Below, in pieces: positions 30,791 to 63,114 of a stretch of 64,000 nt of DNA. The first letter of the stretch is position 1, and each line of letters begins with the position of its first letter. The position numbers and the translations under genes are program-made. Origin of the DNA: Escherichia coli (lineage in GTDB: Bacteria > Pseudomonadota > Gammaproteobacteria > Enterobacterales > Enterobacteriaceae). Under the pieces are notes generated by a model. It was not told the origin of the DNA, searched no databases, and was given only the letters and a program-made list of their open reading frames with translations. The stretch lies in assembly GCF_024700885.2 (NCBI RefSeq), contig NZ_CP117016.1. The stretch is one strand, 5' to 3'.

Positions 30791-32231
<1,441 letters not shown>

Positions 32232-32324
32232 GCTATCATCATTAACTTTATTTATTACCGTCATTCATTTCTGAATGTCTGTTTACCCCTATTTCAACCG
32301 GATGCCTCGCATCCGGTTTTTTTT
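32232..32324 (+). ncRNA. micF: MicF antisense sRNA
   Basis: Recognised sequence gctatcatcattaactttatttattaccgtcattcatttctgaatgtctgtttacccctatttcaaccggatgcctcgcatccggtttttttt including the terminator hairpin and U-run. Confidence 0.9.
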
Positions 32325-32635
32325 ACCCTTCTTTACACACTTTTCATTATTCTGTGCTACCACAGAAAAACTATAACGCTTGTTAACTATTTCACAAATA
32401 ATTAACATCGGCATAATTTCCAGCAATCTTCGTTTATTTGCAATTAATTTCGTTGGGCTTTTTGTAGGTTATTTGTACAGCAAAATGGCGCTTGTACATC
32501 TATTTCACCCAATGCAGGATGATAAATATCACGGGAGAATAGAGAATCATCAATCAGGTAAGAGTCTGGAATTTCACACTGTACCCTTTATACTGCCCTA
32601 TCACTTCGCGAAGTTTTAACAGGTCATAAACACGA

Positions 32636-35308
32636 ATGCGTCAGAAAGAGACAACGGCCACGACCCGCTTTTCACTCCTACCGGGGAGCATTACCCGCTT
32701 CTTTTTACTGTTGATCATTGTGTTACTGGTGACGATGGGGGTAATGGTACAAAGCGCCGTTAACGCCTGGCTGAAAGATAAAAGTTACCAGATTGTCGAC
32801 ATTACCCACGCAATCCAAAAGCGCGTCGATACCTGGCGTTACGTGACCTGGCAGATCTACGACAACATTGCCGCGACGACCTCCCCCTCCTCCGGCGAAG
32901 GTTTACAAGAGACGCGCCTGAAACAGGATGTCTACTATCTGGAAAAACCGCGCCGCAAAACGGAAGCGTTAATCTTTGGCTCTCACGACAACTCAACGCT
33001 TGAGATGACTCAGCGGATGTCCACTTATCTGGATACATTGTGGGGCGCAGAAAATGTACCGTGGTCGATGTATTACCTGAATGGTCAGGATAACAGTCTG
33101 GTGCTGATCTCAACCCTGCCCCTCAAAGATCTCACCTCCGGATTTAAAGAATCGACCGTCAGCGACATTGTTGATTCACGTCGTGCAGAGATGTTGCAAC
33201 AGGCCAACGCCCTCGATGAACGCGAAAGCTTTTCTAACATGCGCCGCCTGGCCTGGCAGAACGGTCATTACTTTACCTTGCGTACCACCTTTAACCAGCC
33301 GGGACATCTGGCAACGGTTGTGGCTTTTGATCTGCCGATTAATGATTTGATCCCACCGGGTATGCCGCTGGACAGTTTCCGCCTTGAGCCAGACGCGACG
33401 GCAACGGGAAACAATGATAATGAGAAAGAAGGGACGGATAGCGTCAGTATCCACTTTAACAGTACGAAGATTGAAATCTCCTCGGCACTCAACTCTACCG
33501 ATATGCGCCTGGTCTGGCAGGTTCCTTATGCCACCTTATTGCTGGATACGTTGCAAAACATTCTGCTGCCACTGCTGCTGAACATCGGTTTGCTGGCGCT
33601 GGCGTTATTTGGCTATACCACATTCCGCCATTTCTCCAGTCGCAGTACAGAAAGTCTACCCAACACGGCGGTCAATAACGAATTGCGCATTTTACGGGCA
33701 ATCAATGAAGAGATAGTCTCACTGCTGCCGCTCGGCCTGCTGGTTCACGATCAGGAATCGAACCGCACTGTCATAAGTAACAAAATTGCCGATCATTTGC
33801 TGCCGCATTTGAATCTGCAAAACATCACCACCATGGCGGAACAGCATCAGGGGATTATTCAGGCGACGATTAATAACGAGCTGTATGAGATCCGCATGTT
33901 CCGCAGCCAGGTCGCGCCGCGCACACAAATTTTCATTATTCGCGATCAGGATCGCGAAGTGCTGGTAAACAAGAAACTCAAGCAGGCGCAGCGTCTGTAT
34001 GAGAAAAACCAGCAGGGGCGGATGACCTTTATGAAAAACATTGGCGATGCGCTGAAAGAACCCGCACAGTCCCTGGCGGAGAGCGCGGCTAAACTCAACG
34101 CCCCGGAAAGCAAACAACTGGCGAATCAGGCTGATGTGCTGGTGCGGCTGGTCGATGAAATACAGTTAGCGAACATGCTTGCGGACGATAGCTGGAAAAG
34201 TGAGACGGTGCTGTTCTACGTGCAGGATTTGATTGATGAAGTTGTGCCTTCAGTGTTGCCTGCCATCAAGCGTAAAGGTCTGCAACTGCTGATTAACAAT
34301 CATCTGAAAGCACACGATATGCGCCGCGGCGATCGCGATGCCTTACGACGTATTTTGCTGTTACTGATACAATATGCCGTGACCTCAACGCAATTGGGAA
34401 AAATCACCCTTGAGGTTGATCAGGATGAGTCCTCCGAAGACCGCCTGACGTTCCGCATTCTGGACACTGGAGAAGGCGTAAGCATTCATGAAATGGATAA
34501 TTTGCACTTCCCGTTTATCAACCAGACCCAAAACGATCGCTATGGCAAGGCGGACCCGCTGGCATTCTGGCTGAGCGATCAACTGGCGCGTAAACTGGGC
34601 GGTCATTTAAACATCAAAACGCGGGATGGGCTTGGTACACGCTACTCTGTGCATATCAAAATGCTCGCAGCTGACCCGGAAGTTGAAGAGGAAGAAGAGC
34701 GATTACTGGATGATGTCTGCGTAATGGTGGATGTTACTTCGGCAGAAATTCGGAATATTGTCACTCGCCAGTTAGAAAATTGGGGTGCAACCTGTATCAC
34801 ACCCGATGAAAGATTAATTAGTCAAGATTATGATATCTTTTTAACGGATAATCCGTCTAATCTTACTGCCTCTGGCTTGCTTTTAAGCGATGATGAGTCT
34901 GGCGTACGGGAAATTGGGCCTGGTCAATTGTGCGTCAACTTCAATATGAGCAACGCTATGCAGGAAGCGGTCTTACAATTAATTGAAGTGCAACTGGCGC
35001 AGGAAGAGGTGACAGAATCGCCTCTGGGCGGAGATGAAAATGCGCAACTCCATGCCAGCGGCTATTATGCGCTCTTTGTAGACACAGTACCGGATGATGT
35101 TAAGAGGCTGTATACTGAAGCAGCAACCAGTGACTTTGCTGCGTTAGCCCAAACGGCTCATCGTCTTAAAGGCGTATTTGCCATGCTAAATCTGGTACCC
35201 GGCAAGCAGTTATGTGAAACGCTGGAACATCTGATTCGTGAGAAGGATGTTCCAGGAATAGAAAAATACATCAGCGACATTGACAGTTATGTCAAGAGCT
35301 TGCTGTAG
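32636..35308 (+). CDS. rcsD: Phosphotransfer intermediate protein RcsD (890 aa)
   Basis: Two N-terminal TM segments, periplasmic domain, degenerate kinase domain, C-terminal HPt; upstream of rcsB. Confidence 0.92.
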   Translation: MRQKETTATTRFSLLPGSITRFFLLLIIVLLVTMGVMVQSAVNAWLKDKSYQIVDITHAIQKRVDTWRYVTWQIYDNIAATTSPSSGEGLQETRLKQDVYYLEKPRRKTEALIFGSHDNSTLEMTQRMSTYLDTLWGAENVPWSMYYLNGQDNSLVLISTLPLKDLTSGFKESTVSDIVDSRRAEMLQQANALDERESFSNMRRLAWQNGHYFTLRTTFNQPGHLATVVAFDLPINDLIPPGMPLDSFRLEPDATATGNNDNEKEGTDSVSIHFNSTKIEISSALNSTDMRLVWQVPYATLLLDTLQNILLPLLLNIGLLALALFGYTTFRHFSSRSTESLPNTAVNNELRILRAINEEIVSLLPLGLLVHDQESNRTVISNKIADHLLPHLNLQNITTMAEQHQGIIQATINNELYEIRMFRSQVAPRTQIFIIRDQDREVLVNKKLKQAQRLYEKNQQGRMTFMKNIGDALKEPAQSLAESAAKLNAPESKQLANQADVLVRLVDEIQLANMLADDSWKSETVLFYVQDLIDEVVPSVLPAIKRKGLQLLINNHLKAHDMRRGDRDALRRILLLLIQYAVTSTQLGKITLEVDQDESSEDRLTFRILDTGEGVSIHEMDNLHFPFINQTQNDRYGKADPLAFWLSDQLARKLGGHLNIKTRDGLGTRYSVHIKMLAADPEVEEEEERLLDDVCVMVDVTSAEIRNIVTRQLENWGATCITPDERLISQDYDIFLTDNPSNLTASGLLLSDDESGVREIGPGQLCVNFNMSNAMQEAVLQLIEVQLAQEEVTESPLGGDENAQLHASGYYALFVDTVPDDVKRLYTEAATSDFAALAQTAHRLKGVFAMLNLVPGKQLCETLEHLIREKDVPGIEKYISDIDSYVKSLL

Positions 35309-53000: not shown

Positions 53001-53842
53001 TCCCCATAACCTGCTGCGCTGTTGTTCTCATCCACTAACACGCCGTTGTTCTGGCTGTAGCTGTCATCAACTGAAATATCAATAAGATAGGGAGCCGTCA
53101 CGCTATTGGTATAAATCGCCCCACCATATCCCTCAGCAGAGTTATTTGTAAATGCGGTGTTATTTATTATTGTGAAACCTGACGGATGCGTGATATTGCT
53201 ATTATTATCGGTGACATCGATTGCCCCTCCATCGCCATCACTGTAACTTGTTGATGTATATGCCTGGTTGTTATCAAAAATAACTTCACTTAAATAGACG
53301 TCATTGTTGATGGTATAAATTGCACCACCTTTGCCGTCATTAGCGATGTTATTGCGAAACACGGCGTTAGTGACACTTAAATCGACGACACCGGTATCGT
53401 TAGTACCAGAAGAATAGATTGCGCCACCATAGCCACCTGCAACGTTACCGGAAAAAATAACATTAGTAAGATTCAGCGTTGAGTTTTCTTTAGCAAATAT
53501 TGCCCCGCCGTTATTATATTCTCCTGAGACAGTATTATTGGCAAACAGAGTCATTCCAGTTTCATTTTCTGGCGATAGAGAAAACTCCGCTCCTTGTTGC
53601 AAAAATACGGCCCCACCGCTGGCGTTATTGGTCATATCCGAAAAAACCAGCCATTGCCCATCGGCGATGCTCCAGTCCTGCGTAATGCCTGAAAGGCTTT
53701 GCCTGCTGGCGTGACAACTCGCTTTGATATCATATCCCTGACATGAATCAATGGCCGCCGCGACACCGTTAGCAGAGAAAAGAGATGCAATCATTGACGG
53801 GAGTAAAGATAAATACTCCTTGCGTAGAAAAATAATCCGCAT
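50084..53842 (-). CDS. yfaL: Autotransporter adhesin YfaL (1252 aa)
   Basis: Signal peptide, repetitive passenger domain, Pro/Asp/Thr linker, C-terminal beta-barrel ending ...GFLSMTVKW. Confidence 0.9.
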   Translation of the reverse strand: MRIIFLRKEYLSLLPSMIASLFSANGVAAAIDSCQGYDIKASCHASRQSLSGITQDWSIADGQWLVFSDMTNNASGGAVFLQQGAEFSLSPENETGMTLFANNTVSGEYNNGGAIFAKENSTLNLTNVIFSGNVAGGYGGAIYSSGTNDTGVVDLSVTNAVFRNNIANDGKGGAIYTINNDVYLSEVIFDNNQAYTSTSYSDGDGGAIDVTDNNSNITHPSGFTIINNTAFTNNSAEGYGGAIYTNSVTAPYLIDISVDDSYSQNNGVLVDENNSAAGYGDGPSTEAGGFMYLGLSEVTFDIADGKTLVIGNTENDGVVDSIAGTGVITKTGSGDLVLNADNNDFTGEMQIENGEVTLGRSNSLMNVGDTHCQDDPQDCYGLTIGSLDQYQNQAELNVGSTQQTFVHALTGFQNGTLNIDAGGNVTVNQGSFAGTIEGAGQLTIAQNGSYVLAGAQSMALTGDIVVDDGAVLTLEGDAADLAALQDDPQSIVLNGGVLDLSDFATWQSGTSYNDGLAVSGSGGTVIGSQDVVDLAGGDNLHIGGDEKDGVYVVIDAGDGLVSLANNNSYLGTTQIASGTLVVSDNSQLGNTDENRQLIFTDSQQQSEMEITADVDTRSEAAGHGRDIEMRADGEVAVDAGVDTQWGALMADSSGQHLDEGSTLTKTGAGTLEMTASGTTQSAVRVEEGTLQGDVADIFPYASSLWVGDGATFKTGADQDIQSIDVTSSGTIDISDGTVLRLTGQDTSIALNASLFNGDGTLVNATDGVTLTGELNTNLETDSLTYLSDVTVNGNLTNTSGAVSLQNGVAGDTLTVNGDYTGGGTLLLDSELNGDDSVSDQLVMNGNTAGNTTVMVNSITGIGEPTSTGIKVVDFAADPTQFQNNAQFSLAGSGYVNMGAYDYTLVEDNNDWYLRSQEVTPPSPPDPDPTPDPDPTPDPDPTPDPAPDPTPAYQPVLNAKVGGYFNNLRAANQAFVMERHDHAGGDGQTLNLRVIGGDYHYTAAGQLAQHEDTSTVQLSGDLFSGCWGTDGEWMLGAVGGYSDNQGDSRSNMTGTRADNQNHGYAVGLTSSWFQHGNQKQGAWLDSWLQYAWFNNDVSEHEDGVDHYHSSGIIASLEAGYQWLPGRGVVIEPQAQVIYQGVQQDDFTAANHARVSQSQGDDIQTRLGLHSEWRTAVHVIPTLDLNYYHDPHATEIEEDGSTISDDAVKQRGELKVGVTGNISQRVSLRGSVAWQKGSDDFAQTAGFLSMTVKW

Positions 53843-54375
53843 ATTAATCTGACCATCATTTTCTATAAGACGGCATATTTAATCGCATTATACGATATGG
53901 GTTATTTTTCTTTTGTAAATTGTTCAACCCGGTGCAATGGCTATTTTGTTATTATTTCATGAATAATATCAGTGCGTCATAATTCAAGTTAATCACCTTA
54001 AGGGATATCAGTTATGTTTAAACTGAATTAAAGTAATGAATAATTTTCTTATAATATAAGGTAAATTAACAAAATGGCTTCGCATTTAACAACAACCGAA
54101 GAGAAAACAACCATTTCGACATCAACAATCGCTTACATTCGCTTATATATTGACCATAACTGATACATCAGATTATGTGATGACTCGTGCTTAGATCAAT
54201 TTTTGCAATCATTAGCCAAAAGATTAATAAACCATCTATATCAATTTATCTAACCTATTCTTCCGTTCAAGAAATCGCCGAACAGTTATTTTTAACAAAT
54301 TTTTCTCTTCCCATTGACTTTCCCGGACACCTTGTCTGACCTAAGGTGCGCGAAAGCCACTTTTTCCTTCCTGAG

Positions 54376-54384
54376 TTATCCACA
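54376..54384 (+). promoter_or_regulatory. DnaA box upstream of the nrdA promoter
   Basis: Exact TTATCCACA consensus. Confidence 0.75.
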
Positions 54385-54413
54385 AAGTTATGCACTTGCA
54401 AGAGGGCCATTTT

Positions 54414-54460
54414 CACACTATCTTGCAGTGAATCCCAAACATACCCCCTATATATAGTGT
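54414..54460 (+). promoter_or_regulatory. Putative NrdR boxes around the nrdA promoter
   Basis: cacactatcttgcagtg and ccctatatatagtgt resemble the NrdR box consensus acaCwAtATaTwGtgt, spaced about 31 bp apart. Confidence 0.55.
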
Positions 54461-54537
54461 TCTAAGCAGCTTCCCTCACTACAGGTAGTCTGCATGAAAC
54501 TATTGCGGAAAGAATTCCAAAAACAGGTACGACATAC

Positions 54538-56823
54538 ATGAATCAGAATCTGCTGGTGACAAAGCGCGACGGTAGCACAGAGCGCATCAATCTCGACAAA
54601 ATCCATCGCGTTCTGGATTGGGCGGCAGAAGGACTGCATAACGTTTCGATTTCCCAGGTCGAACTGCGCTCCCACATTCAGTTTTATGACGGTATCAAGA
54701 CCTCTGACATCCACGAAACCATTATCAAGGCTGCCGCAGACCTGATCTCCCGTGATGCGCCGGATTATCAGTATCTCGCCGCGCGCCTGGCGATCTTCCA
54801 CCTGCGTAAAAAAGCCTACGGCCAGTTTGAGCCGCCTGCGCTGTACGACCACGTGGTGAAAATGATCGAGATGGGCAAATACGATAATCATCTGCTGGAA
54901 GACTACACGGAAGAAGAGTTCAAGCAGATGGACACGTTTATCGATCACGACCGTGATATGACCTTTTCTTATGCTGCGGTTAAGCAGCTGGAAGGCAAAT
55001 ATCTGGTGCAGAACCGTGTGACCGGCGAAATCTACGAAAGCGCCCAGTTCCTTTATATTCTGGTTGCCGCGTGCCTGTTCTCGAACTACCCGCGTGAAAC
55101 GCGCCTGCAATACGTGAAGCGTTTTTACGACGCGGTTTCCACATTTAAAATTTCGCTGCCGACGCCAATCATGTCCGGCGTGCGTACCCCGACTCGTCAG
55201 TTCAGCTCCTGCGTACTGATCGAGTGCGGTGACAGCCTGGATTCCATTAACGCCACCTCCAGCGCGATTGTTAAATACGTTTCCCAGCGTGCCGGGATCG
55301 GCATCAATGCCGGGCGTATTCGTGCGCTGGGTAGCCCGATTCGCGGTGGCGAAGCGTTCCATACCGGTTGTATTCCGTTCTATAAGCATTTCCAGACAGC
55401 GGTGAAATCCTGCTCTCAGGGCGGTGTGCGTGGCGGTGCGGCTACGCTGTTCTACCCGATGTGGCATCTGGAAGTTGAAAGCCTGCTGGTGTTGAAAAAC
55501 AACCGTGGGGTGGAAGGCAACCGCGTGCGTCATATGGACTACGGGGTACAAATCAACAAACTGATGTATACCCGTCTGCTGAAAGGTGAAGATATCACCC
55601 TGTTCAGCCCGTCCGACGTACCGGGGCTGTACGACGCGTTCTTCGCCGATCAGGAAGAGTTTGAACGCCTGTACACCAAATATGAGAAAGACGACAGCAT
55701 CCGCAAGCAGCGTGTGAAAGCCGTTGAGCTGTTCTCGCTGATGATGCAGGAACGTGCGTCTACCGGTCGTATCTATATTCAGAACGTTGACCACTGCAAT
55801 ACCCATAGCCCGTTTGATCCGGCCATCGCGCCAGTGCGCCAGTCTAACCTGTGCCTGGAAATCGCCCTGCCGACCAAACCGCTGAATGATGTCAACGACG
55901 AGAACGGTGAAATAGCGCTGTGTACGTTGTCTGCTTTCAACCTGGGCGCAATTAATAGCCTGGATGAACTGGAAGAGCTGGCGATTCTGGCGGTACGCGC
56001 ACTCGACGCGCTGCTGGACTATCAGGATTACCCGATCCCGGCCGCCAAACGTGGAGCGATGGGTCGTCGTACGCTGGGTATTGGTGTGATCAACTTCGCT
56101 TACTACCTGGCGAAGCACGGTAAACGCTACTCCGACGGCAGCGCCAACAACCTGACGCATAAAACCTTCGAAGCTATTCAGTATTACCTGCTGAAAGCCT
56201 CTAATGAGCTGGCGAAAGAGCAAGGCGCGTGCCCGTGGTTTAACGAAACCACTTACGCGAAAGGGATCCTGCCGATCGATACCTATAAGAAAGATCTGGA
56301 TGCCATCGCTAATGAGCCGCTGCATTACGACTGGGAAGCACTGCGTGAGTCAATCAAAACGCACGGCCTGCGTAACTCCACGCTTTCTGCTCTGATGCCG
56401 TCCGAGACCTCTTCGCAGATCTCTAACGCCACTAACGGTATTGAACCGCCGCGTGGTTACGTCAGCATCAAAGCGTCGAAAGACGGTATTCTGCGCCAGG
56501 TGGTGCCGGACTACGAGCATCTGCACGACGCCTATGAACTGCTGTGGGAAATGCCGGGTAACGATGGCTACCTGCAACTGGTGGGTATCATGCAGAAATT
56601 TATCGATCAGTCGATCTCTGCTAACACCAACTACGATCCGTCACGCTTCCCGTCAGGAAAAGTGCCGATGCAGCAACTGCTGAAAGACCTGCTCACCGCC
56701 TACAAATTCGGGGTCAAAACGCTGTATTATCAGAACACCCGTGACGGTGCTGAAGACGCACAAGACGATCTGGTACCGTCAATCCAGGACGATGGCTGCG
56801 AAAGCGGCGCATGTAAGATCTGA
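54538..56823 (+). CDS. nrdA: Ribonucleoside-diphosphate reductase 1 alpha subunit NrdA (761 aa)
   Basis: MNQNLLVTKRDGSTERINLDKIHRVL ATP-cone N-terminus, catalytic core, C-terminal cysteine pair. Confidence 0.96.
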   Translation: MNQNLLVTKRDGSTERINLDKIHRVLDWAAEGLHNVSISQVELRSHIQFYDGIKTSDIHETIIKAAADLISRDAPDYQYLAARLAIFHLRKKAYGQFEPPALYDHVVKMIEMGKYDNHLLEDYTEEEFKQMDTFIDHDRDMTFSYAAVKQLEGKYLVQNRVTGEIYESAQFLYILVAACLFSNYPRETRLQYVKRFYDAVSTFKISLPTPIMSGVRTPTRQFSSCVLIECGDSLDSINATSSAIVKYVSQRAGIGINAGRIRALGSPIRGGEAFHTGCIPFYKHFQTAVKSCSQGGVRGGAATLFYPMWHLEVESLLVLKNNRGVEGNRVRHMDYGVQINKLMYTRLLKGEDITLFSPSDVPGLYDAFFADQEEFERLYTKYEKDDSIRKQRVKAVELFSLMMQERASTGRIYIQNVDHCNTHSPFDPAIAPVRQSNLCLEIALPTKPLNDVNDENGEIALCTLSAFNLGAINSLDELEELAILAVRALDALLDYQDYPIPAAKRGAMGRRTLGIGVINFAYYLAKHGKRYSDGSANNLTHKTFEAIQYYLLKASNELAKEQGACPWFNETTYAKGILPIDTYKKDLDAIANEPLHYDWEALRESIKTHGLRNSTLSALMPSETSSQISNATNGIEPPRGYVSIKASKDGILRQVVPDYEHLHDAYELLWEMPGNDGYLQLVGIMQKFIDQSISANTNYDPSRFPSGKVPMQQLLKDLLTAYKFGVKTLYYQNTRDGAEDAQDDLVPSIQDDGCESGACKI

Positions 56824-59137: not shown

Positions 59138-60328
59138 TTAATGAATTTCTTTTGCCACTACTAGCGCGACACCGCTTTTACCCTTCATTTGCAGCGCATA
59201 GACTCCACCAGCCACTACCACTAATAGTGCACCCAGCAGATAAATCATTCGGTAGCCAGTATGTGCAACCATCATCCCCATCACACAGGCTCCCAGCGCC
59301 AGGCCTGCATCCATCGCATTGAAGAAGAGGGAGTTTGCGACACCGATTTTATGCGGTTCCACTGAACTGATAATCTGCGTCTGAAAAACTGGCGTCACGG
59401 AACCATACCCGATACCAATCAATGCGCCAGAAACAACCATCATTATGCTTCCCTGGGTGTAGCCGAGAACCACCAGTCCTACCGTAAAGAACACAAGGCA
59501 AGGGTAAACCACATATTTCGGTCCTTTTTTGTCGCAGACATTGCCGGTAAAGGTACGGCAAATCATCAGGAAGATAGCGTAGCAAAGCAGGAAATTACTG
59601 GCTGCCGACATCAGGTTAAGTTCGCGTGCATAAAGCGCCAGAAAAGCAGAAACCCCGGCATACGAAAAGGTCATAAAAAAGGTGACCATCGCAAATGGCA
59701 ACGCCGCGCGATCGAACATGGCGGCGAAGCCCATTTTCGGCGTTGAACCATCAGCATGGCTGATAACCGGCGGCACTGTCATAATCAGCGACAGAATAAT
59801 CCCCACCGCTGCCACGCCGGTGCATAGCCAGAAAGCCAGATTAAAGGCTTCCCAGCGCGCCATATTCAGACCAATCCACGGCCCGACCACCATTGCCATC
59901 CCCATTGCCAGAGAGAAAAAACTGATGCCCTCCCCACGTCGGGAGGCCGGGATCAGCCGCGCGGAAATCGTTCCTTTTACCGTAGTGATAACCCCGAAGG
60001 TAATACCATGAAGCACCCGAATAAAAAGCAGTGATTCAATTGAGTGGCAAAAAGGATACAGCGCAGTGACCACCAAAAAGGCCAGAGAAGAGAGCCCCAG
60101 AATAGTTTTATTCGAATATTTACCTACCCATTGCCCGGCAAAGGGGCGAATAACAATGGCGGCAATTAAAAATAAAGTCACCAACAAACCTGCTTTATCA
60201 GGAGAGGCATGCAAGCGGTCTGAGATATAAATTGGCAACAATGTTAGTAAAACATAAAAGACGAAGAAAATAATAAAGCTGATGATGGTTATTGCCCAAA
60301 AATCCTTCGTCCATAACTTCTCTTTCAT
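59138..60328 (-). CDS. MFS transporter, 12-TM (396 aa)
   Basis: Hydrophobic segments throughout; MFS-type loop 2-3 motif (GQWVGKYSNK); divergent from the LysR gene. Confidence 0.8.
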   Translation of the reverse strand: MKEKLWTKDFWAITIISFIIFFVFYVLLTLLPIYISDRLHASPDKAGLLVTLFLIAAIVIRPFAGQWVGKYSNKTILGLSSLAFLVVTALYPFCHSIESLLFIRVLHGITFGVITTVKGTISARLIPASRRGEGISFFSLAMGMAMVVGPWIGLNMARWEAFNLAFWLCTGVAAVGIILSLIMTVPPVISHADGSTPKMGFAAMFDRAALPFAMVTFFMTFSYAGVSAFLALYARELNLMSAASNFLLCYAIFLMICRTFTGNVCDKKGPKYVVYPCLVFFTVGLVVLGYTQGSIMMVVSGALIGIGYGSVTPVFQTQIISSVEPHKIGVANSLFFNAMDAGLALGACVMGMMVAHTGYRMIYLLGALLVVVAGGVYALQMKGKSGVALVVAKEIH

Positions 60329-60479
60329 ACCCTACCGCCTGTCAGGATGACGCACGCAGACAACACTCCCGTTACTGCGGTTGCGTCAAATTGTGATGTA
60401 CTTTGCAGAACAGAAGTATAAATGGCGGCATGCTATTAGAGAAATTAATCGTTTTAATATTATTGATTAGCAAACTCTA

Positions 60480-61358
60480 ATGACTCTTACCCAAATAAAT
60501 TCTTTACTCGCCGTGCTGGATTACGGTGGCTTTACTGAAGCCAGCAAGCGATTGTTCATGACGCAGTCGGCGGTAAGTCAGGCAATTGCTGCCCTCGAAC
60601 AAGAACTTGGCGTGAGTATACTGTTACGCGATCGCCGTAAAGCTATACAACTGACCGCAGCAGGTCATCGCATTGTGCATCATCTGCGCGCCATTAATCG
60701 GGAAGTGAACGCAGTAAAAGAGATAGCCGAGCAGGAAAAGCAGAACCCTCAAAGAACGCTGAGACTTGGTTGTTTCCCCAGCGTCTGCGCCTGTATCTTA
60801 CCGGCTGTGATTCGCTACTTTGAAATTCATCATCCGAATATAAAAATTATTCCTTTTGAGGAAAATAGCACAGCGATTATTGATTCCCTTCAGAATGAAT
60901 CCATTGATGCCGGTTTTGTTCATTTTCCGGTGAGCGGAATGTACTCCGTGCCCATTTATCAGGATAAATTCACCGTAGTGTTACCGCCCAACCATGCTCT
61001 GGCAAAAAACAGCACTATTACAGTGGAAGAGTTAATGGGTGAACCATTAATTATTAGTAAAGGACGCTATGAATTAAGCATTATGGCACTATTTAAAGAA
61101 AAGAATATTACCCCACAGATAAAATATGAATTTAATCACCCTGATACAGCGATCAGTTTTATTCGACAGGGATTAGGCATCGCCTTATTACCAGAGTTAA
61201 CGCTGAAAACCATTGCAGATGAATTGTGTTCCGTTCCTCTCGAACCAACCTTCTATCGACAGATTTCGTTGCTGGCTAAAGAAAAGCCGGTAGAAGGCAG
61301 TCCACTGTTTTTACTGCAAATGTGTACGGAACAACTCGTGGTGAGTGGAAAAATTTGA
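60480..61358 (+). CDS. LysR-family transcriptional regulator (292 aa)
   Basis: N-terminal HTH (GGFTEASKRLFMTQSAVSQAIAALEQELGVSILLR) and LysR substrate-binding domain; ~150-bp divergent intergenic region shared with the MFS gene. Confidence 0.85.
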   Translation: MTLTQINSLLAVLDYGGFTEASKRLFMTQSAVSQAIAALEQELGVSILLRDRRKAIQLTAAGHRIVHHLRAINREVNAVKEIAEQEKQNPQRTLRLGCFPSVCACILPAVIRYFEIHHPNIKIIPFEENSTAIIDSLQNESIDAGFVHFPVSGMYSVPIYQDKFTVVLPPNHALAKNSTITVEELMGEPLIISKGRYELSIMALFKEKNITPQIKYEFNHPDTAISFIRQGLGIALLPELTLKTIADELCSVPLEPTFYRQISLLAKEKPVEGSPLFLLQMCTEQLVVSGKI

Positions 61359-61513
61359 TGTAAGACATGAGATTGATGACAAATGCAAGACTGCCTGATT
61401 CGCCACACTTAGTTGTACTATAGCCTTTACCAGGCGTAATAATTCGTTTTCACCTGATTTTGGCCCACTTTGTGAATTGGCGATATATATTTATCCAGTT
61501 GGGAGAAGTGACA

Positions 61514-61645
61514 ATGACTCCAGGTAGAAATCGGTATGAAGCGCCCGACTCACTGTCAAAACCGATCGTTGAGAGTAATGACACTCCGGCGAACAGTACA
61601 CAGTTTACTCTGGAGCCATTCTCAATCTTCAAGTGGGATACCTAG
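61514..61645 (+). CDS. Candidate small protein (43 aa), unknown function
   Basis: ATG at 61514 preceded by GGGAGAAG 7 nt upstream; MTPGRNRYEAPDSLSKPIVESNDTPANSTQFTLEPFSIFKWDT; no homolog recognised. Confidence 0.4.
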   Translation: MTPGRNRYEAPDSLSKPIVESNDTPANSTQFTLEPFSIFKWDT

Positions 61646-61823
61646 TAACTTTTCAGGGAAGTTATCAATATCTGTTTGTTACTTATTACCGTATTTATTA
61701 ACAATAATGATACTTTCTACCATGCGTAAAGGTCTTCGTAATAAAATGAGCTAAATTTGATAGTGAATATATTTTGCAAAGATTAGATTGTATCTTGTTA
61801 ACTCACAATACAAGGAATCATTT

Positions 61824-62894
61824 ATGCCAAATACATCTATTCACTTATCTCGCTGTAATATTTTACAAAATAATAAATTGCAACCAGCAGAAATTTACAA
61901 AGAATCACAACAAACCGCGAAACTTGAGTTTTTTTGCGATGAGTTTCTAAAAATATCTCAAAGTAGATACGGGTTATCAACTTCAGCAGACAGCATAGCT
62001 AATTTATTGGCTTTTTTCACGAAAGCCTCAGATGCAATTGATAGTATCAAGACCCAAAAAATTGACGTTCACAGTTATGGTTTCGTACCAATAAGACATT
62101 TTGTCGAACATGTCATAACGTATAAAAATGAATTTGCAGCGGATTATGAACCCTATACCCTTACCTTTACCCGAGGTGAAAACAACGAAGGTATTTTGAG
62201 TGTCGAAAGCAAAGAAGGGTTTATTTCACAAAGAACAATAAACTTAAATGAATATGAAACTGCAATTAACATCATCAATGAACATGTTATAAAAGAAAAT
62301 ATCCACAACACGGTCCAGTCACCGACAGAAAAAGACATTTCAAAAATAAACAGCTCTGATAAACCTTATAAAACCAGCAGTGAGGAAAGTATTAAAAGTC
62401 AACTTTACAGCGATCAAAAAAAATATACAGACCTGCTACTACATTCTGAGAAAAATACAGAATGGTACAAATACGCATCCTCCGTGGAACGCTATGATAA
62501 ATTCAAGAATTCTTCTAAGGAAATTAAAAATACCTACAAGCAAATTGTACAAGCGCAGAAAAAATTGAACCAAATGAAATACATCAATAAATTAAGTGGT
62601 GAGCTTATCGATATCGCCGACAAAAAGTTAGCACCATTAATAAATGATAGTTTCAGCTATACACGAGATTTCTTTGCTTACTCAAAACAGGAAAATAACA
62701 TCTTCACGTTTGATAATTCTAAGTTTGAAGATCCAAAGGAAAAAAAAGGTTTAATGGTACAACACAGCAATGGACAACTGGTTATTACTGGTGAATATTA
62801 TCCTGAAGGTGTGCAAATAGCATTCACTCAAGAACAATATAATAAATTAATAAGATACATTAATATTTTCTTTACTTTCCCGAAATGCGAATAA
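61824..62894 (+). CDS. Hypothetical protein (356 aa) in an AT-rich islet; no recognisable domain, no signal peptide or TM segment
   Basis: Long ORF (track 61788-62894); preferred start ATG 61824 with AAGGA SD 8 nt upstream; ~30% GC and Lys/Asn/Ser/Glu-rich composition unlike the flanking core genes. Confidence 0.65.
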   Translation: MPNTSIHLSRCNILQNNKLQPAEIYKESQQTAKLEFFCDEFLKISQSRYGLSTSADSIANLLAFFTKASDAIDSIKTQKIDVHSYGFVPIRHFVEHVITYKNEFAADYEPYTLTFTRGENNEGILSVESKEGFISQRTINLNEYETAINIINEHVIKENIHNTVQSPTEKDISKINSSDKPYKTSSEESIKSQLYSDQKKYTDLLLHSEKNTEWYKYASSVERYDKFKNSSKEIKNTYKQIVQAQKKLNQMKYINKLSGELIDIADKKLAPLINDSFSYTRDFFAYSKQENNIFTFDNSKFEDPKEKKGLMVQHSNGQLVITGEYYPEGVQIAFTQEQYNKLIRYINIFFTFPKCE

Positions 62895-63079
62895 TACTTT
62901 ACAGTATAAACTGCAATACAATTTATTATTGAACCCAATTCATACTGTTTAAGGAATAACAATGCCCAGTGTTAGCTTTCTTAACGAATGAGTTTTACGC
63001 AAATATGTTGGCATCTTTTTTAACAGGATGCACCGGTTAATGAATAGAACAACCGGAAGTAGCATTATTTCGCTTTAGC

Positions 63080-63108
63080 AGAGGATGGCGCATGAACGCC
63101 ATCCTGCA
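63080..63108. terminator. Hairpin terminator downstream of glpQ, possibly bidirectional
   Basis: AGGATGGCG-catgaa-CGCCATCCT stem-loop between the hypothetical CDS and the glpQ stop. Confidence 0.7.
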
Positions 63109-63114
63109 ATAGCA

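What the first reader, a model, noticed from the sequence alone, without database searches (positions are those of the whole stretch)
61360..63114. AT-rich islet between the LysR regulator and glpQ encoding an uncharacterised 356-aa protein
The segment drops to roughly 30% GC (18 of 60 bases sampled at 61861-61920) against about 50% in the flanking core genes. It encodes one long ORF with a good Shine-Dalgarno and AAA/AAT-rich codon usage. I find no catalytic motif, P-loop, signal peptide or TM segment, and no adjacent integrase, IS element or tRNA. Foreign composition inside an otherwise strictly syntenic region suggests horizontally acquired cargo, likely H-NS-silenced. Single-gene islets like this often hold phage-defence or abortive-infection functions, or effector-like proteins, but the function is open.
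Basis: partly seen in the sequence, partly recalled or inferred. Interest (0 to 1): 0.7.

Follow-up and report, generated by a model that had tools for sequence, protein, structure and literature searches.

The report
Old E. coli-only orphan gene islet
The AT-rich stretch between the LysR regulator and glpQ is real and carries one genuine protein-coding gene (Z3496/ECs3123 of E. coli O157:H7) that has no detectable relative outside E. coli; it is an old resident of this spot that most strains have since deleted or broken, and nothing found here shows what it does or links it to phage defence.

Summary
Observation confirmed. Window 61360-63114 is the lowest-GC kilobase of the window (0.32 vs 0.51). 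It holds one intact 356-aa ORF (61824-62894, +) with a good Shine-Dalgarno, no TM segment, and no tRNA, IS or integrase nearby.

The gene is the ortholog of EDL933 Z3496 / Sakai ECs3123, next to the published regulator Z3495. It has no hit in Pfam, NCBIfam, PADLOC, PHROGs, PDB, Rfam, phages, plasmids or IMG/VR. An exhaustive HMM search of 1.84 billion proteins found no true homolog outside Escherichia. Two AlphaFold runs failed (pLDDT 42 and 36).

It sits at this one locus in about 19% of complete E. coli genomes and in cryptic clade I. K-12's empty site is most simply a secondary deletion.

The ORF is really coding: chance of staying open is 4e-13, 15 of 17 diverged alleles are intact, stops are depleted, and O157 carries a compensated frameshift. 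Constraint is weak (piN/piS 0.56 vs 0.03-0.08 for neighbours). The gene has been lost by at least 3 deletions plus frameshift, nonsense and IS1 events. Its 5' region is more conserved than the ORF.

Function is unresolved. Defence and effector readings have no positive support. PGAP's "frameshifted" label on non-O157 alleles is an annotation artefact. Interest is moderate to low.

The parts
61368..63081 (.). The 1.7-kb segment absent from K-12-type genomes ('deletion 2'). It holds the ORF with its 5' and 3' non-coding DNA.
   Evidence: BLAST of the K-12 junction against the window maps the breakpoints. The tight ORF-less junction occurs in 3186 of 5426 genomes. No target-site duplication or terminal repeats were found.
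61824..62894 (+). Orphan protein-coding gene, 356 aa, ortholog of EDL933 Z3496 / Sakai ECs3123 (NP_311150.1, WP_001301786.1 type).
   Evidence: ORF. Identity to O157 is 93% at the protein level. Sakai annotation. Z numbering follows from glpQ = Z3497 and LysR = Z3495. Coding evidence.
61812..61816 (+). Shine-Dalgarno AAGGA, 7 nt upstream of the ATG.
   Evidence: Read directly from the sequence. It is invariant in 17 alleles.
61659..61823 (+). Highly conserved 5' region, presumed to hold the promoter, operator and 5' UTR of the ORF.
   Evidence: Nucleotide diversity is 0.009-0.018, the lowest of the segment. It has fewer segregating sites than the downstream non-coding DNA (P=1e-5) and than the ORF (P=2e-4). 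Alignment. The strict sigma-70 scan found no consensus promoter.
61676..61704 (.). Imperfect palindrome TTGTTA-N17-TAACAA inside the conserved 5' block; a candidate operator.
   Evidence: Found by the repeat finder as I2. The outer arms are invariant in 17 alleles. Function is inferred only.
62289..62414 (+). Hypervariable central stretch (codons 156-197), with two deeply diverged allele classes; probably a disordered linker.
   Evidence: pN 0.14 and pS 0.19. Diversity is 0.10-0.11. Protein alignment. AF2 pLDDT is about 27 here.
62416..62423 (+). Poly-A tract (A8) in the ORF that acts as a frameshift hotspot. A9 gives a 208-aa truncation; A7 is the O157-type allele, compensated downstream.
   Evidence: Alignments. 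P0016 reads ...DQKKIYRPATTF* and has 541 member sequences.
62451..62455 (+). Second A-run (A5). It is A6 in O157-type alleles, which restores the frame 34 nt after the first shift.
63033..63056 (+). Small hairpin CCGGTT...AACCGG downstream of the ORF; a possible terminator, low confidence.
   Evidence: Centroid structure of the RNA fold. The terminator scan did not pick it up.
63078..63107 (.). Strong hairpin (GGATGGCG-CATGAA-CGCCATCC) just past the glpQ stop codon. It is retained in the K-12-type and HH45-type deletions and in all ORF-carrying alleles, and it marks their right deletion boundary.
61514..61645 (+). 43-aa upstream small ORF, annotated by PGAP in one strain; probably not a real gene.
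   Evidence: It is intact in 17 of 17 alleles, but variants are 11 nonsynonymous to 3 synonymous, about the neutral ratio. PGAP annotation in PE164.
60480..61358 (+). Context: the LysR regulator, ortholog of Z3495 (O-island 97). The K-12 yfaH pseudogene is its 3' remnant.
   Evidence: NCBIfam PRK09729 (yfaH) matches residues 226-292. K-12 annotation. Paper: PMC10819331.
59138..60328 (-). Context: the MFS transporter, ortholog of Z3494, transcribed divergently from the LysR gene.

Best explanation
**What it is (shown)**
- This is a 1.7-kb AT-rich chromosomal segment holding one real protein-coding gene, the ortholog of EDL933 Z3496 / Sakai ECs3123.
- The family is confined to E. coli in the broad sense, including cryptic clade I, and always sits between the LysR gene (or its yfaH remnant) and glpQ.
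- It is an old resident of the locus, not a recent insertion.
- The simplest history is MFS-LysR-ORF, then yfaH-ORF, then yfaH alone (K-12). There were further independent losses: the HH45-type deletion, an IS1-mediated deletion, an IS1 insertion, an A8-to-A9 frameshift, a nonsense codon and a clade-I frameshift.
- Intact copies are under real but weak purifying selection.
- The 5' region is more conserved than the coding sequence.

**How it most likely works (inferred, low certainty)**
- The product is a soluble 41-kDa cytoplasmic protein. No enzyme family could be recognised for it.
- It has a conserved N-terminal part (helices plus a three-strand sheet) and a conserved C-terminal part. These are joined by a hypervariable, probably disordered linker and a helix of about 95 residues.
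- It probably acts by binding partners rather than by catalysis.
- It gives a conditional, dispensable benefit.
- It is probably transcribed from its own conserved AT-rich promoter and kept low by H-NS-type silencing.
For: **Identity and annotation**
- Strain 1190 is 100% identical to the window. The gene is ECs_3123 in Sakai. The Z numbering follows.

**Orphan status**
- No hits were found in Pfam, NCBIfam, PADLOC, PHROGs, PDB by sequence or by profile or Rfam.
- All word-indexed homologs are from Escherichia at 82% identity or more.
- The exhaustive profile search of 1.84e9 representatives gave only fragments of the same gene plus two false leads.
- The one-genome-per-species scan gave only a contaminated MAG contig.
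- Phages, plasmids and IMG/VR gave nothing real.

**Age and history**
- Clade I strain TW10509 carries the gene at the same site.
- The deletion-1 junction is identical in K-12 and in ORF-carrying strains.
- K-12 breakpoints. Independent HH45 deletion. IS1 events.

**Coding evidence**
- The chance of 356 open codons at this composition is 3.8e-13, and the other five frames hold 17-42 stops.
- 15 of 17 alleles are intact at up to about 8% DNA divergence.
- About 7.9 premature stops are expected; 1 real one is seen, or 3 by the conservative count (P=0.035).
- In-frame piN/piS is 0.56, the lowest of six frames (the others are 0.68-0.96).
- The only in-ORF indels in intact alleles are a compensating -1/+1 pair.

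**Other points**
- 5' conservation.
- Soluble, no TM.
- Secondary-structure layout, at low confidence.
Against: - Constraint is weak: piN/piS is 0.56, against 0.034 for glpQ and 0.077 for inaA. The excess of synonymous changes is only marginal (P=0.056).
- About 80% of genomes lack the gene. By protein-cluster counts, roughly 15% of carriers hold truncated alleles.
- AlphaFold gave no confident fold (pLDDT 42 and 36), so the domain picture is soft.
- No transcription, translation or H-NS binding data could be found or tested. The strict promoter scan found no consensus sigma-70 site upstream.
- The polarity of the original event (insertion or ancestral) is unresolved because no outgroup species could be examined.
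- The functional part of the statement rests on what was not found, not on positive evidence.
Confidence: 0.55

Rival explanations
1. **Decaying remnant.** The ORF once coded for something but is now effectively neutral DNA on its way out of the species. Intact copies persist only because decay is slow.
For: - piN/piS is 0.56, and 0.73 in the central third.
- At least seven independent inactivations or losses are seen.
- The full segment is present in only 1045 of 5426 genomes.
- No confident fold was obtained.
- No literature mentions the gene.
Against: - In 32%-GC DNA a neutral 1071-nt frame should fill with stops. About 7.9 are expected among the observed variants, yet only 1 is real.
- 15 of 17 alleles are intact across deep divergence.
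- The O157 lineage restored the frame by a second-site indel 34 nt after a frameshift.
- The 5' region is significantly more conserved than neighbouring non-coding DNA.
Confidence: 0.2
2. **Single-gene anti-phage defence or abortive-infection protein**.
For: - It is an AT-rich accessory gene with patchy distribution and frequent loss.
- It has a hypervariable stretch with two old allele classes.
- It has a frameshift-prone homopolymer that gives on and off alleles.
- No other function is known.
Against: - PADLOC gave 0 hits even at E<=10.
- No NTPase, nuclease, protease, TIR, Sir2 or other effector domain was found.
- It is absent from phages, plasmids and IMG/VR.
- It has never been seen at another locus or in another species, unlike typical defence genes.
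- It is flanked by core metabolic genes rather than a defence island.
Confidence: 0.1
3. **Secreted or host-interaction factor.** This could be a substrate of a type III or flagellar export system, possibly linked to the neighbouring virulence regulator Z3495.
For: - There is no signal peptide or TM segment.
- The first 22 residues are rich in Ser, Thr, Asn, Ile and Leu and contain no acidic residue (sequence).
- The predicted layout is helical with a long helix.
- The termini are conserved around a variable middle.
- It sits directly downstream of Z3495, a reported LEE activator (PMC10819331).
- It is present in O157:H7.
Against: - It is also present in strains not expected to carry LEE: APEC O78, a healthy student's rectal isolate, and canine, goat and baboon isolates.
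- It is not on a prophage or pathogenicity island.
- It persists where Z3495 is deleted, in the yfaH-plus-ORF configuration.
- No effector family was hit.
- The N-terminal composition argument is non-specific.
Confidence: 0.07
4. **Small metal-dependent hydrolase** that uses the HFVEH motif (residues 92-96, an inverted-zincin HxxEH pattern) within a predicted helix.
For: - The motif is present and invariant in all alleles.
- It lies in predicted helix 89-98.
- By my own arithmetic from the composition, the chance of HxxEH occurring in this protein is roughly 1-2%.
Against: - There is no Peptidase_M16 or other peptidase hit in Pfam even at E<=10, nor in PDB.
- The motif was picked after the fact from many possible motifs.
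- The whole N-terminal region is about 95% identical between alleles, so invariance of the motif tells us nothing.
Confidence: 0.04

Closest known systems
O-islands of E. coli O157:H7 (segments absent from K-12), specifically the neighbouring OI-97 (Z3494-Z3495)
   Same: - The segment is present in EDL933 and Sakai and absent from K-12.
- It is small, has lower GC, carries no mobility genes and lies between core genes.
- It lies 247 bp (the retained LysR 3' end) from OI-97.
   Different: - OI-97 encodes recognisable families (an MFS transporter and a LysR regulator) and has a published virulence phenotype.
- This segment encodes an orphan with no family and no publication.
- I infer it is the next numbered island (OI-98), but no paper in the library confirmed that.
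Taxonomically restricted (orphan) AT-rich genes of enterobacteria, which are silenced by H-NS as xenogeneic DNA (established knowledge: Navarre 2006, Lucchini 2006)
   Same: - GC is 32% against about 51% for the surroundings.
- It has no homologs elsewhere, weak constraint and patchy distribution.
   Different: - H-NS binding and silencing were not tested.
- The H-NS high-affinity motif is not enriched: one 1-mismatch site in the ORF.
- The gene is old at its locus rather than recently acquired.
Single-gene abortive-infection and defence proteins (PADLOC catalogue)
   Same: It is a small accessory locus of a single gene, with frequent loss and variable alleles.
   Different: It has no PADLOC model hit, no enzymatic domain, no link to mobile elements and no horizontal spread.
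Phase-variable contingency genes with homopolymeric tracts (Neisseria, Haemophilus, Campylobacter)
   Same: An in-frame homopolymer (A8) shows length variants among strains (A7, A8, A9) that switch the reading frame.
   Different: - An A8 run is short for high-rate slippage.
- The variants look fixed within lineages.
- One variant was repaired by a second-site change rather than by reversion.
- Many alleles have the tract interrupted by a G.
Cadherin-like repeat proteins (hit P0035)
   Same: A roughly 37-residue stretch (103-139...LTFTRGENNEGILSVESKEGFISQRTI) resembles the repeat motif ...LTYSL.DN..GLFSIDSKTGVISL, and it is predicted to form strands.
   Different: - hhalign gives a probability of 6.7%.
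- There is no Pfam cadherin hit.
- The apparent E-value came from summing six copies of the same short motif.
- The stretch is too short to be a whole domain.

Membership tests
Known anti-phage defence systems (PADLOC-DB v2) | Match to a defence-protein HMM | tested here: not met
   0 families at E<=10.
Known anti-phage defence systems (PADLOC-DB v2) | Location in a defence island or on a mobile element, with horizontal spread across taxa | tested here: not met
   Flanked by nrdAB-yfaE-inaA and glpQT. Absent from phages, plasmids and IMG/VR. One locus, one species.
Known anti-phage defence systems (PADLOC-DB v2) | Protection against phage infection | not testable with these tools
   Needs plaque assays.
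Any curated protein family (Pfam-A, NCBIfam, PHROGs, PDB sequences) | Significant profile or sequence match | tested here: not met
   Best Pfam hit has i-E 0.2. NCBIfam gave none. Best PHROG hit has E 7.8. Best PDB hit has E 0.3, and the PDB profile search gave none.
Mobile genomic island | Integrase, transposase, tRNA target, or flanking direct or inverted repeats | tested here: not met
   No tRNA. No boundary repeats. Neighbouring genes are MFS, LysR and glpQ. IS1 occurs only as a secondary insertion in some strains.
O-island (present in EDL933/Sakai, absent from K-12) | Present in O157:H7 and absent from MG1655 at the same locus | tested here: met
   Sakai ECs_3123 is present and Xuzhou21 carries it. 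MG1655 has 41 bp between yfaH and glpQ.
H-NS-silenced xenogeneic DNA | AT content well above the genome average | tested here: met
   GC is 0.32 vs 0.51, the lowest in the window.
H-NS-silenced xenogeneic DNA | H-NS occupancy and de-repression in hns mutants | not testable with these tools
   K-12 data sets lack the segment. No O157 data set mentioning the gene was found.
Type III secretion effector | Co-occurrence with a type III system, or location on a prophage or pathogenicity island | tested here: not met
   Present in APEC O78 and in commensal-type isolates, at a chromosomal core locus. LEE status of those strains was not checked directly.
Type III secretion effector | Secretion or translocation dependent on the injectisome | not testable with these tools
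   Needs reporter-fusion assays.
Peptidase M16 / inverted zincins | HxxEH motif | tested here: met
   HFVEH at residues 92-96.
Peptidase M16 / inverted zincins | Match to the family profile or fold | tested here: not met
   No Peptidase_M16 hit at E<=10. No PDB hit. No usable model for a fold search.
Cadherin-like repeat domain | Profile match over a whole ~100-residue repeat | tested here: not met
   Only 37 residues align, hhalign probability is 6.7%, and there is no Pfam hit.
Phase-variable contingency locus | Homopolymer tract in the ORF with length polymorphism that shifts the frame | tested here: met
   A7, A8 and A9 states at 62416-62423.
Phase-variable contingency locus | High-frequency reversible switching within a clone | not testable with these tools
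   Needs deep sequencing within a strain. An A8 run is short, and the variants look fixed within lineages.

The most novel reading that the evidence does not exclude
Z3496/ECs3123 would be the founding member of a protein family found only in E. coli, mediating a strain-specific interaction with phage, host or competitors. Three features would support this: a hypervariable central segment carried as two old allele classes, a slippage-prone A8 tract that creates on and off alleles, and a tightly conserved regulatory region. On this reading it would be a new kind of single-gene defence or secreted factor that current catalogues cannot recognise.
Probability: 0.12. Interest if true: 0.65.

Novelty: new member of a known kind. 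Interest (0 to 1): 0.3.

Why it matters
- The gene sits directly beside a published EHEC virulence regulator (Z3495) in O157:H7, yet has never been studied.
- The resistance cassette used to delete OI-97 and z3495 lies immediately upstream of this gene's conserved 5' region. Possible polar effects on Z3496 were not examined in that work.
- RefSeq/PGAP labelled all 12 fetched alleles in the majority frame (11 of them intact) as 'frameshifted' pseudogenes, because the reference protein is the derived O157 allele. Pangenome and pseudogene counts that rely on those labels will therefore be wrong for this gene.
- The gene is a clean case for studying how an old orphan gene erodes within a species. 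There are five nested locus configurations, at least three independent deletions and several point inactivations, while intact copies are still held open by selection.
- If a function were found, it would define a family with no known relatives.

Tried and rejected
1. **Distant homolog P0036 (161 aa, 38% identity).** Rejected. Its contig L005 is collinear with the window at 72% identity and riddled with frameshifts, so it is a noisy long-read assembly of the same E. coli locus.
2. **Cadherin-repeat relative P0035.** Rejected. Only a 37-residue motif matches, and hhalign probability is 6.7%.
3. **Presence in Collinsella.** Rejected. It is a 3.5-kb MAG contig 98% identical to E. coli, which is contamination.
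4. **Plasmid copy.** Rejected. The 'plasmid' is a 4.9-Mb chromosome mislabelled in PLSDB.
5. **Internal duplication between residues ~109-156 and ~292-350.** I suspected this by eye. Rejected by shuffle tests, P=0.41 and 0.81.
6. **Structure prediction.** Full length with 9 sequences gave pLDDT 42.5. The N-terminal 165 residues with 15 alleles gave pLDDT 36.5. No fold search was run because the models are unusable.
7. **The 43-aa upstream ORF as a partner gene.** Intact everywhere, but substitutions look neutral at 11 nonsynonymous to 3 synonymous.
8. **RNA element.** No Rfam match at E<=1.
9. **H-NS motif enrichment.** Not informative.
10. **Literature.** There is no mention of Z3496, ECs3123 or OI-98. 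The Z3495 ChIP-seq table appears to use K-12 coordinates and cannot cover this segment.
11. **PGAP's 'frameshifted' flag as evidence that the window copy is a pseudogene.** Rejected. The window has the majority frame, and the O157 reference carries the derived, compensated shift.
Full report
**1. Observation**

The window is E. coli chromosome and is 100% identical over this region to strain 1190. The local gene order is:
- nrdA-nrdB-yfaE-inaA
- an MFS transporter (59138-60328, minus strand)
- a LysR regulator (60480-61358, plus strand)
- the ORF under study (61824-62894, plus strand)
- glpQ (from 63115, minus strand)

The ORF is 356 codons with an ATG start. An AAGGA Shine-Dalgarno lies 7 nt upstream.

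GC is 0.343 for 61360-63114 and 0.319 for the core 61650-63080. It is exactly 18 of 60 at 61861-61920. The lowest-GC kilobase of the whole 64-kb window lies here (0.323, against mean 0.511, sd 0.049). GC3 is 0.30 against 0.48 for glpQ.

There is no TM segment, no tRNA, no boundary repeats and no IS or integrase among the neighbours. The only correction is that the first ~290 bp are at about 42% GC.

**2. Identity**

In O157:H7 Sakai the gene is ECs_3123 (NP_311150.1). In EDL933 the LysR is Z3495 and the MFS is Z3494, which together form O-island 97 (PMC10819331). glpQ is Z3497 (PMC4041753). The gene is therefore Z3496.

No paper in the library mentions Z3496, ECs3123 or OI-98. The K-12 pseudogene yfaH is the 3' remnant of the LysR gene.

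**3. Orphan status**

| Search | Result |
|---|---|
| Pfam | best i-E 0.2 |
| NCBIfam | none |
| PADLOC | none at E<=10 |
| PHROGs | best E 7.8 |
| PDB sequences and profile | none |
| Rfam | none |
| Word-indexed search of 5.8 billion clusters | only Escherichia proteins, at least 82% identical |
| Exhaustive profile search of 1.84 billion representatives | fragments of the same gene plus two leads |
| One genome per species | only a 3.5-kb 'Collinsella' MAG contig at 98% identity, i.e. contamination |
| Phage genomes | nothing |
| IMG/VR | nothing |
| Plasmids | one hit, a mislabelled 4.9-Mb chromosome |

Both leads from the exhaustive search failed:
- P0036 comes from a noisy long-read contig of the same locus.
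- P0035 is a cadherin-repeat protein that matches only a 37-residue motif, at 6.7% hhalign probability.

Two AlphaFold runs gave pLDDT 42.5 and 36.5, so no fold comparison was attempted.

**4. Distribution and history**

The full segment is in 1045 of 5426 complete E. coli genomes, always on the chromosome. All 20 carriers fetched have it at this locus. I found five configurations:

| Configuration | Examples |
|---|---|
| (a) MFS-LysR-ORF | window, O157, others |
| (b) yfaH remnant plus ORF | APEC O78, TW14425, clade I TW10509 |
| (c) yfaH remnant alone | K-12 type; tight junction in 3186 genomes |
| (d) a further deletion into yfaH, with a poly-G filler | HH45 |
| (e) intact MFS plus a very divergent LysR (71-81% identity) that abuts glpQ through a different hairpin, no ORF | JX21CE8 |

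The MFS-LysR deletion junction, at the microhomology CCCAGCAGATAAA, is identical in K-12 and in ORF-carrying strains including clade I. It is therefore a single event. The simplest series is (a) to (b) to (c), which makes K-12's lack of the ORF a secondary deletion of window 61368-63081.

HH45 and an IS1-mediated deletion are independent losses. The K-12-type and HH45-type deletions both stop at the glpQ-proximal hairpin (63078-63107).

Configuration (e) suggests that in a deeper or foreign lineage LysR abuts glpQ directly. The segment may therefore have been inserted before E. coli and clade I diverged. No outgroup could be examined, so this remains an inference.

**5. Is it a real gene?**

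- At this composition the chance of 356 open codons is 3.8e-13, and the other five frames carry 17-42 stops.
- Of 17 alleles differing by up to about 8% in DNA, 15 are intact at exactly 1071 nt. Clade I has a +1 frameshift and strain N96 has a stop at codon 286.
- With the observed mutation spectrum, about 7.9 stop-creating variants are expected. One real premature stop is seen, or three by a conservative consensus-based count (P=0.035).
- In-frame piN/piS is 0.56, the lowest of six frames (the others are 0.68-0.96). This is far above glpQ (0.034) and inaA (0.077).
- By region, piN/piS is 0.57 for codons 1-155, 0.73 for the hypervariable codons 156-197 (pN 0.14, pS 0.19, two old allele classes), and 0.39 for codons 210-356.

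The gene is therefore coding, under weak constraint.

**6. The frameshift story**

PGAP marks the ORF as 'frameshifted' in strain 1190 and in every other fetched allele with the majority frame. The reason is that O157-type alleles (L002, L019; cluster P0003) carry A8 to A7 at 62416-62423 and A5 to A6 at 62451-62455. This recodes about 10 residues and then restores the frame.

All other alleles, including the most divergent, have the window's frame. The O157 state is therefore derived, and the PGAP label is an artefact of the reference choice.

The same tract also exists as A9. That gives a 208-aa truncated protein, cluster P0016, with 541 member sequences. The compensation argues that the C-terminal 147 residues matter in the O157 lineage. 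The tract is a mutational hotspot, but nothing shows it to be a regulated switch.

**7. Regulation**

The block 61659-61858 is the least polymorphic part of the segment, with diversity of 0.009-0.018. It has significantly fewer segregating sites than the 3' non-coding DNA (P=1e-5) and than the ORF (P=2e-4).

It contains a palindrome, TTGTTA-N17-TAACAA (61676-61704), whose arms are invariant. A strict sigma-70 scan found nothing upstream.

The gene persists where LysR is deleted, so it does not depend on Z3495. H-NS silencing is plausible from composition alone. The high-affinity H-NS motif is not enriched.

**8. Protein**

The protein is 41.4 kDa, pI 6.5 and hydrophilic, and is rich in Lys, Ser, Ile, Glu and Asn.

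The low-confidence secondary-structure layout is consistent between the two models:
- helices at 23-49, 55-75 and 89-98
- three strands at 111-140
- a helix at 142-157
- a disordered variable linker
- a nearly continuous helix at 181-276
- then a small strand-strand-helix unit

The only catalytic-looking feature is HFVEH (residues 92-96), an inverted-zincin pattern. No M16 profile hit supports it. A suspected internal repeat was rejected.

**9. Interpretation**

- **Best supported:** an old, E. coli-restricted orphan gene that is dispensable and eroding. Intact copies are still held open and regulated. It most likely encodes a binding or scaffold-type cytoplasmic protein with no recognisable enzyme family, with a conditional role. 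The functional part of this reading is inference.
- **Defence:** no positive support. The gene's strict vertical, single-locus history counts against it.
- **Effector:** rests on non-specific features. The gene's presence in non-EHEC isolates counts against it.
- **Pure remnant:** contradicted by stop avoidance, the compensated frameshift and the 5' conservation. It is nonetheless true for many individual lineages.

**10. Verdict**

The finding is real, and the gene is a legitimate uncharacterised target beside a known virulence regulator. It belongs to a familiar class, the AT-rich lineage-restricted orphan islets (O-islands), and nothing here points to a new mechanism. Interest is 0.3.

Noticed in passing
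window 61824-62894; L001, L010-L018, L020, L021: RefSeq/PGAP annotates every fetched allele with the majority (ancestral) reading frame as a 'frameshifted' pseudogene. The reference protein (WP_001301786.1) is the derived O157 allele, which carries a compensated -1/+1 shift. Pseudogene counts for this gene are therefore inflated.
   Followed up: yes
L023 5500-6800 (strain JX21CE8; about 98 genomes fall in the 80-90% identity band): There is a very divergent haplotype (71-81% identity) covering the MFS 5' end, the whole LysR gene and the junction to glpQ. It has a different terminator hairpin and no ORF, and its flanks are 97-99% identical. It looks like an import from a distant lineage or a very old balanced haplotype.
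   Followed up: partly
window 61514-61645 (+): A 43-aa ORF with a GGGAG-type ribosome-binding site is annotated by PGAP in strain PE164 (WP_259394523.1). It is intact in 17 of 17 alleles, but substitutions are 11 nonsynonymous to 3 synonymous, so there is no sign of coding constraint.
   Followed up: yes
window 61676-61704: The palindrome TTGTTA-N17-TAACAA sits in the most conserved part of the segment. It is a possible regulator binding site for the ORF.
   Followed up: partly
window 61360-61399; PMC10819331 supplementary Tables S3 and S4: The published OI-97 and z3495 deletion primer ends exactly at the LysR stop codon, so the resistance cassette sits directly upstream of Z3496's 5' region. 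Polar effects on Z3496 were not examined. The paper's ChIP-seq peak table appears to use K-12 coordinates (a peak labelled glpQ at 2,351,168), so O-island DNA such as this segment could not be reported.
   Followed up: partly
L009 (JAIJJM010000334.1); H46 (NZ_CP141089.1); L005 (Logan SRR9924671): Three database artefacts turned up. A 'Collinsella sp.' MAG contains a 3.5-kb E. coli contig. A 4.9-Mb E. coli chromosome is filed as a plasmid in PLSDB. A noisy long-read contig yields false 'divergent homolog' proteins in the protein collection.
   Followed up: yes
L025 3101-3180 (strain HH45): A further deletion runs from inside the yfaH remnant to the glpQ terminator and is joined by a run of nine G. 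Its right end coincides with that of the K-12 deletion at window ~63081, which suggests the glpQ terminator hairpin sets the limit of tolerated deletions.
   Followed up: partly
window 60000-61360: The MFS-LysR intergenic region and the LysR gene are themselves below the local GC level (0.39-0.47; LysR 0.435). The low-GC zone is therefore wider than the reported islet and covers the whole block that is variably deleted.
   Followed up: no
window 31500-32900 and 53100-54800: Two milder AT-rich patches (1-kb GC 0.38-0.40) exist. The first is the ompC-rcsD intergenic region. The second is the yfaL 5' end plus the DNA upstream of nrdA. Both look ordinary.
   Followed up: partly
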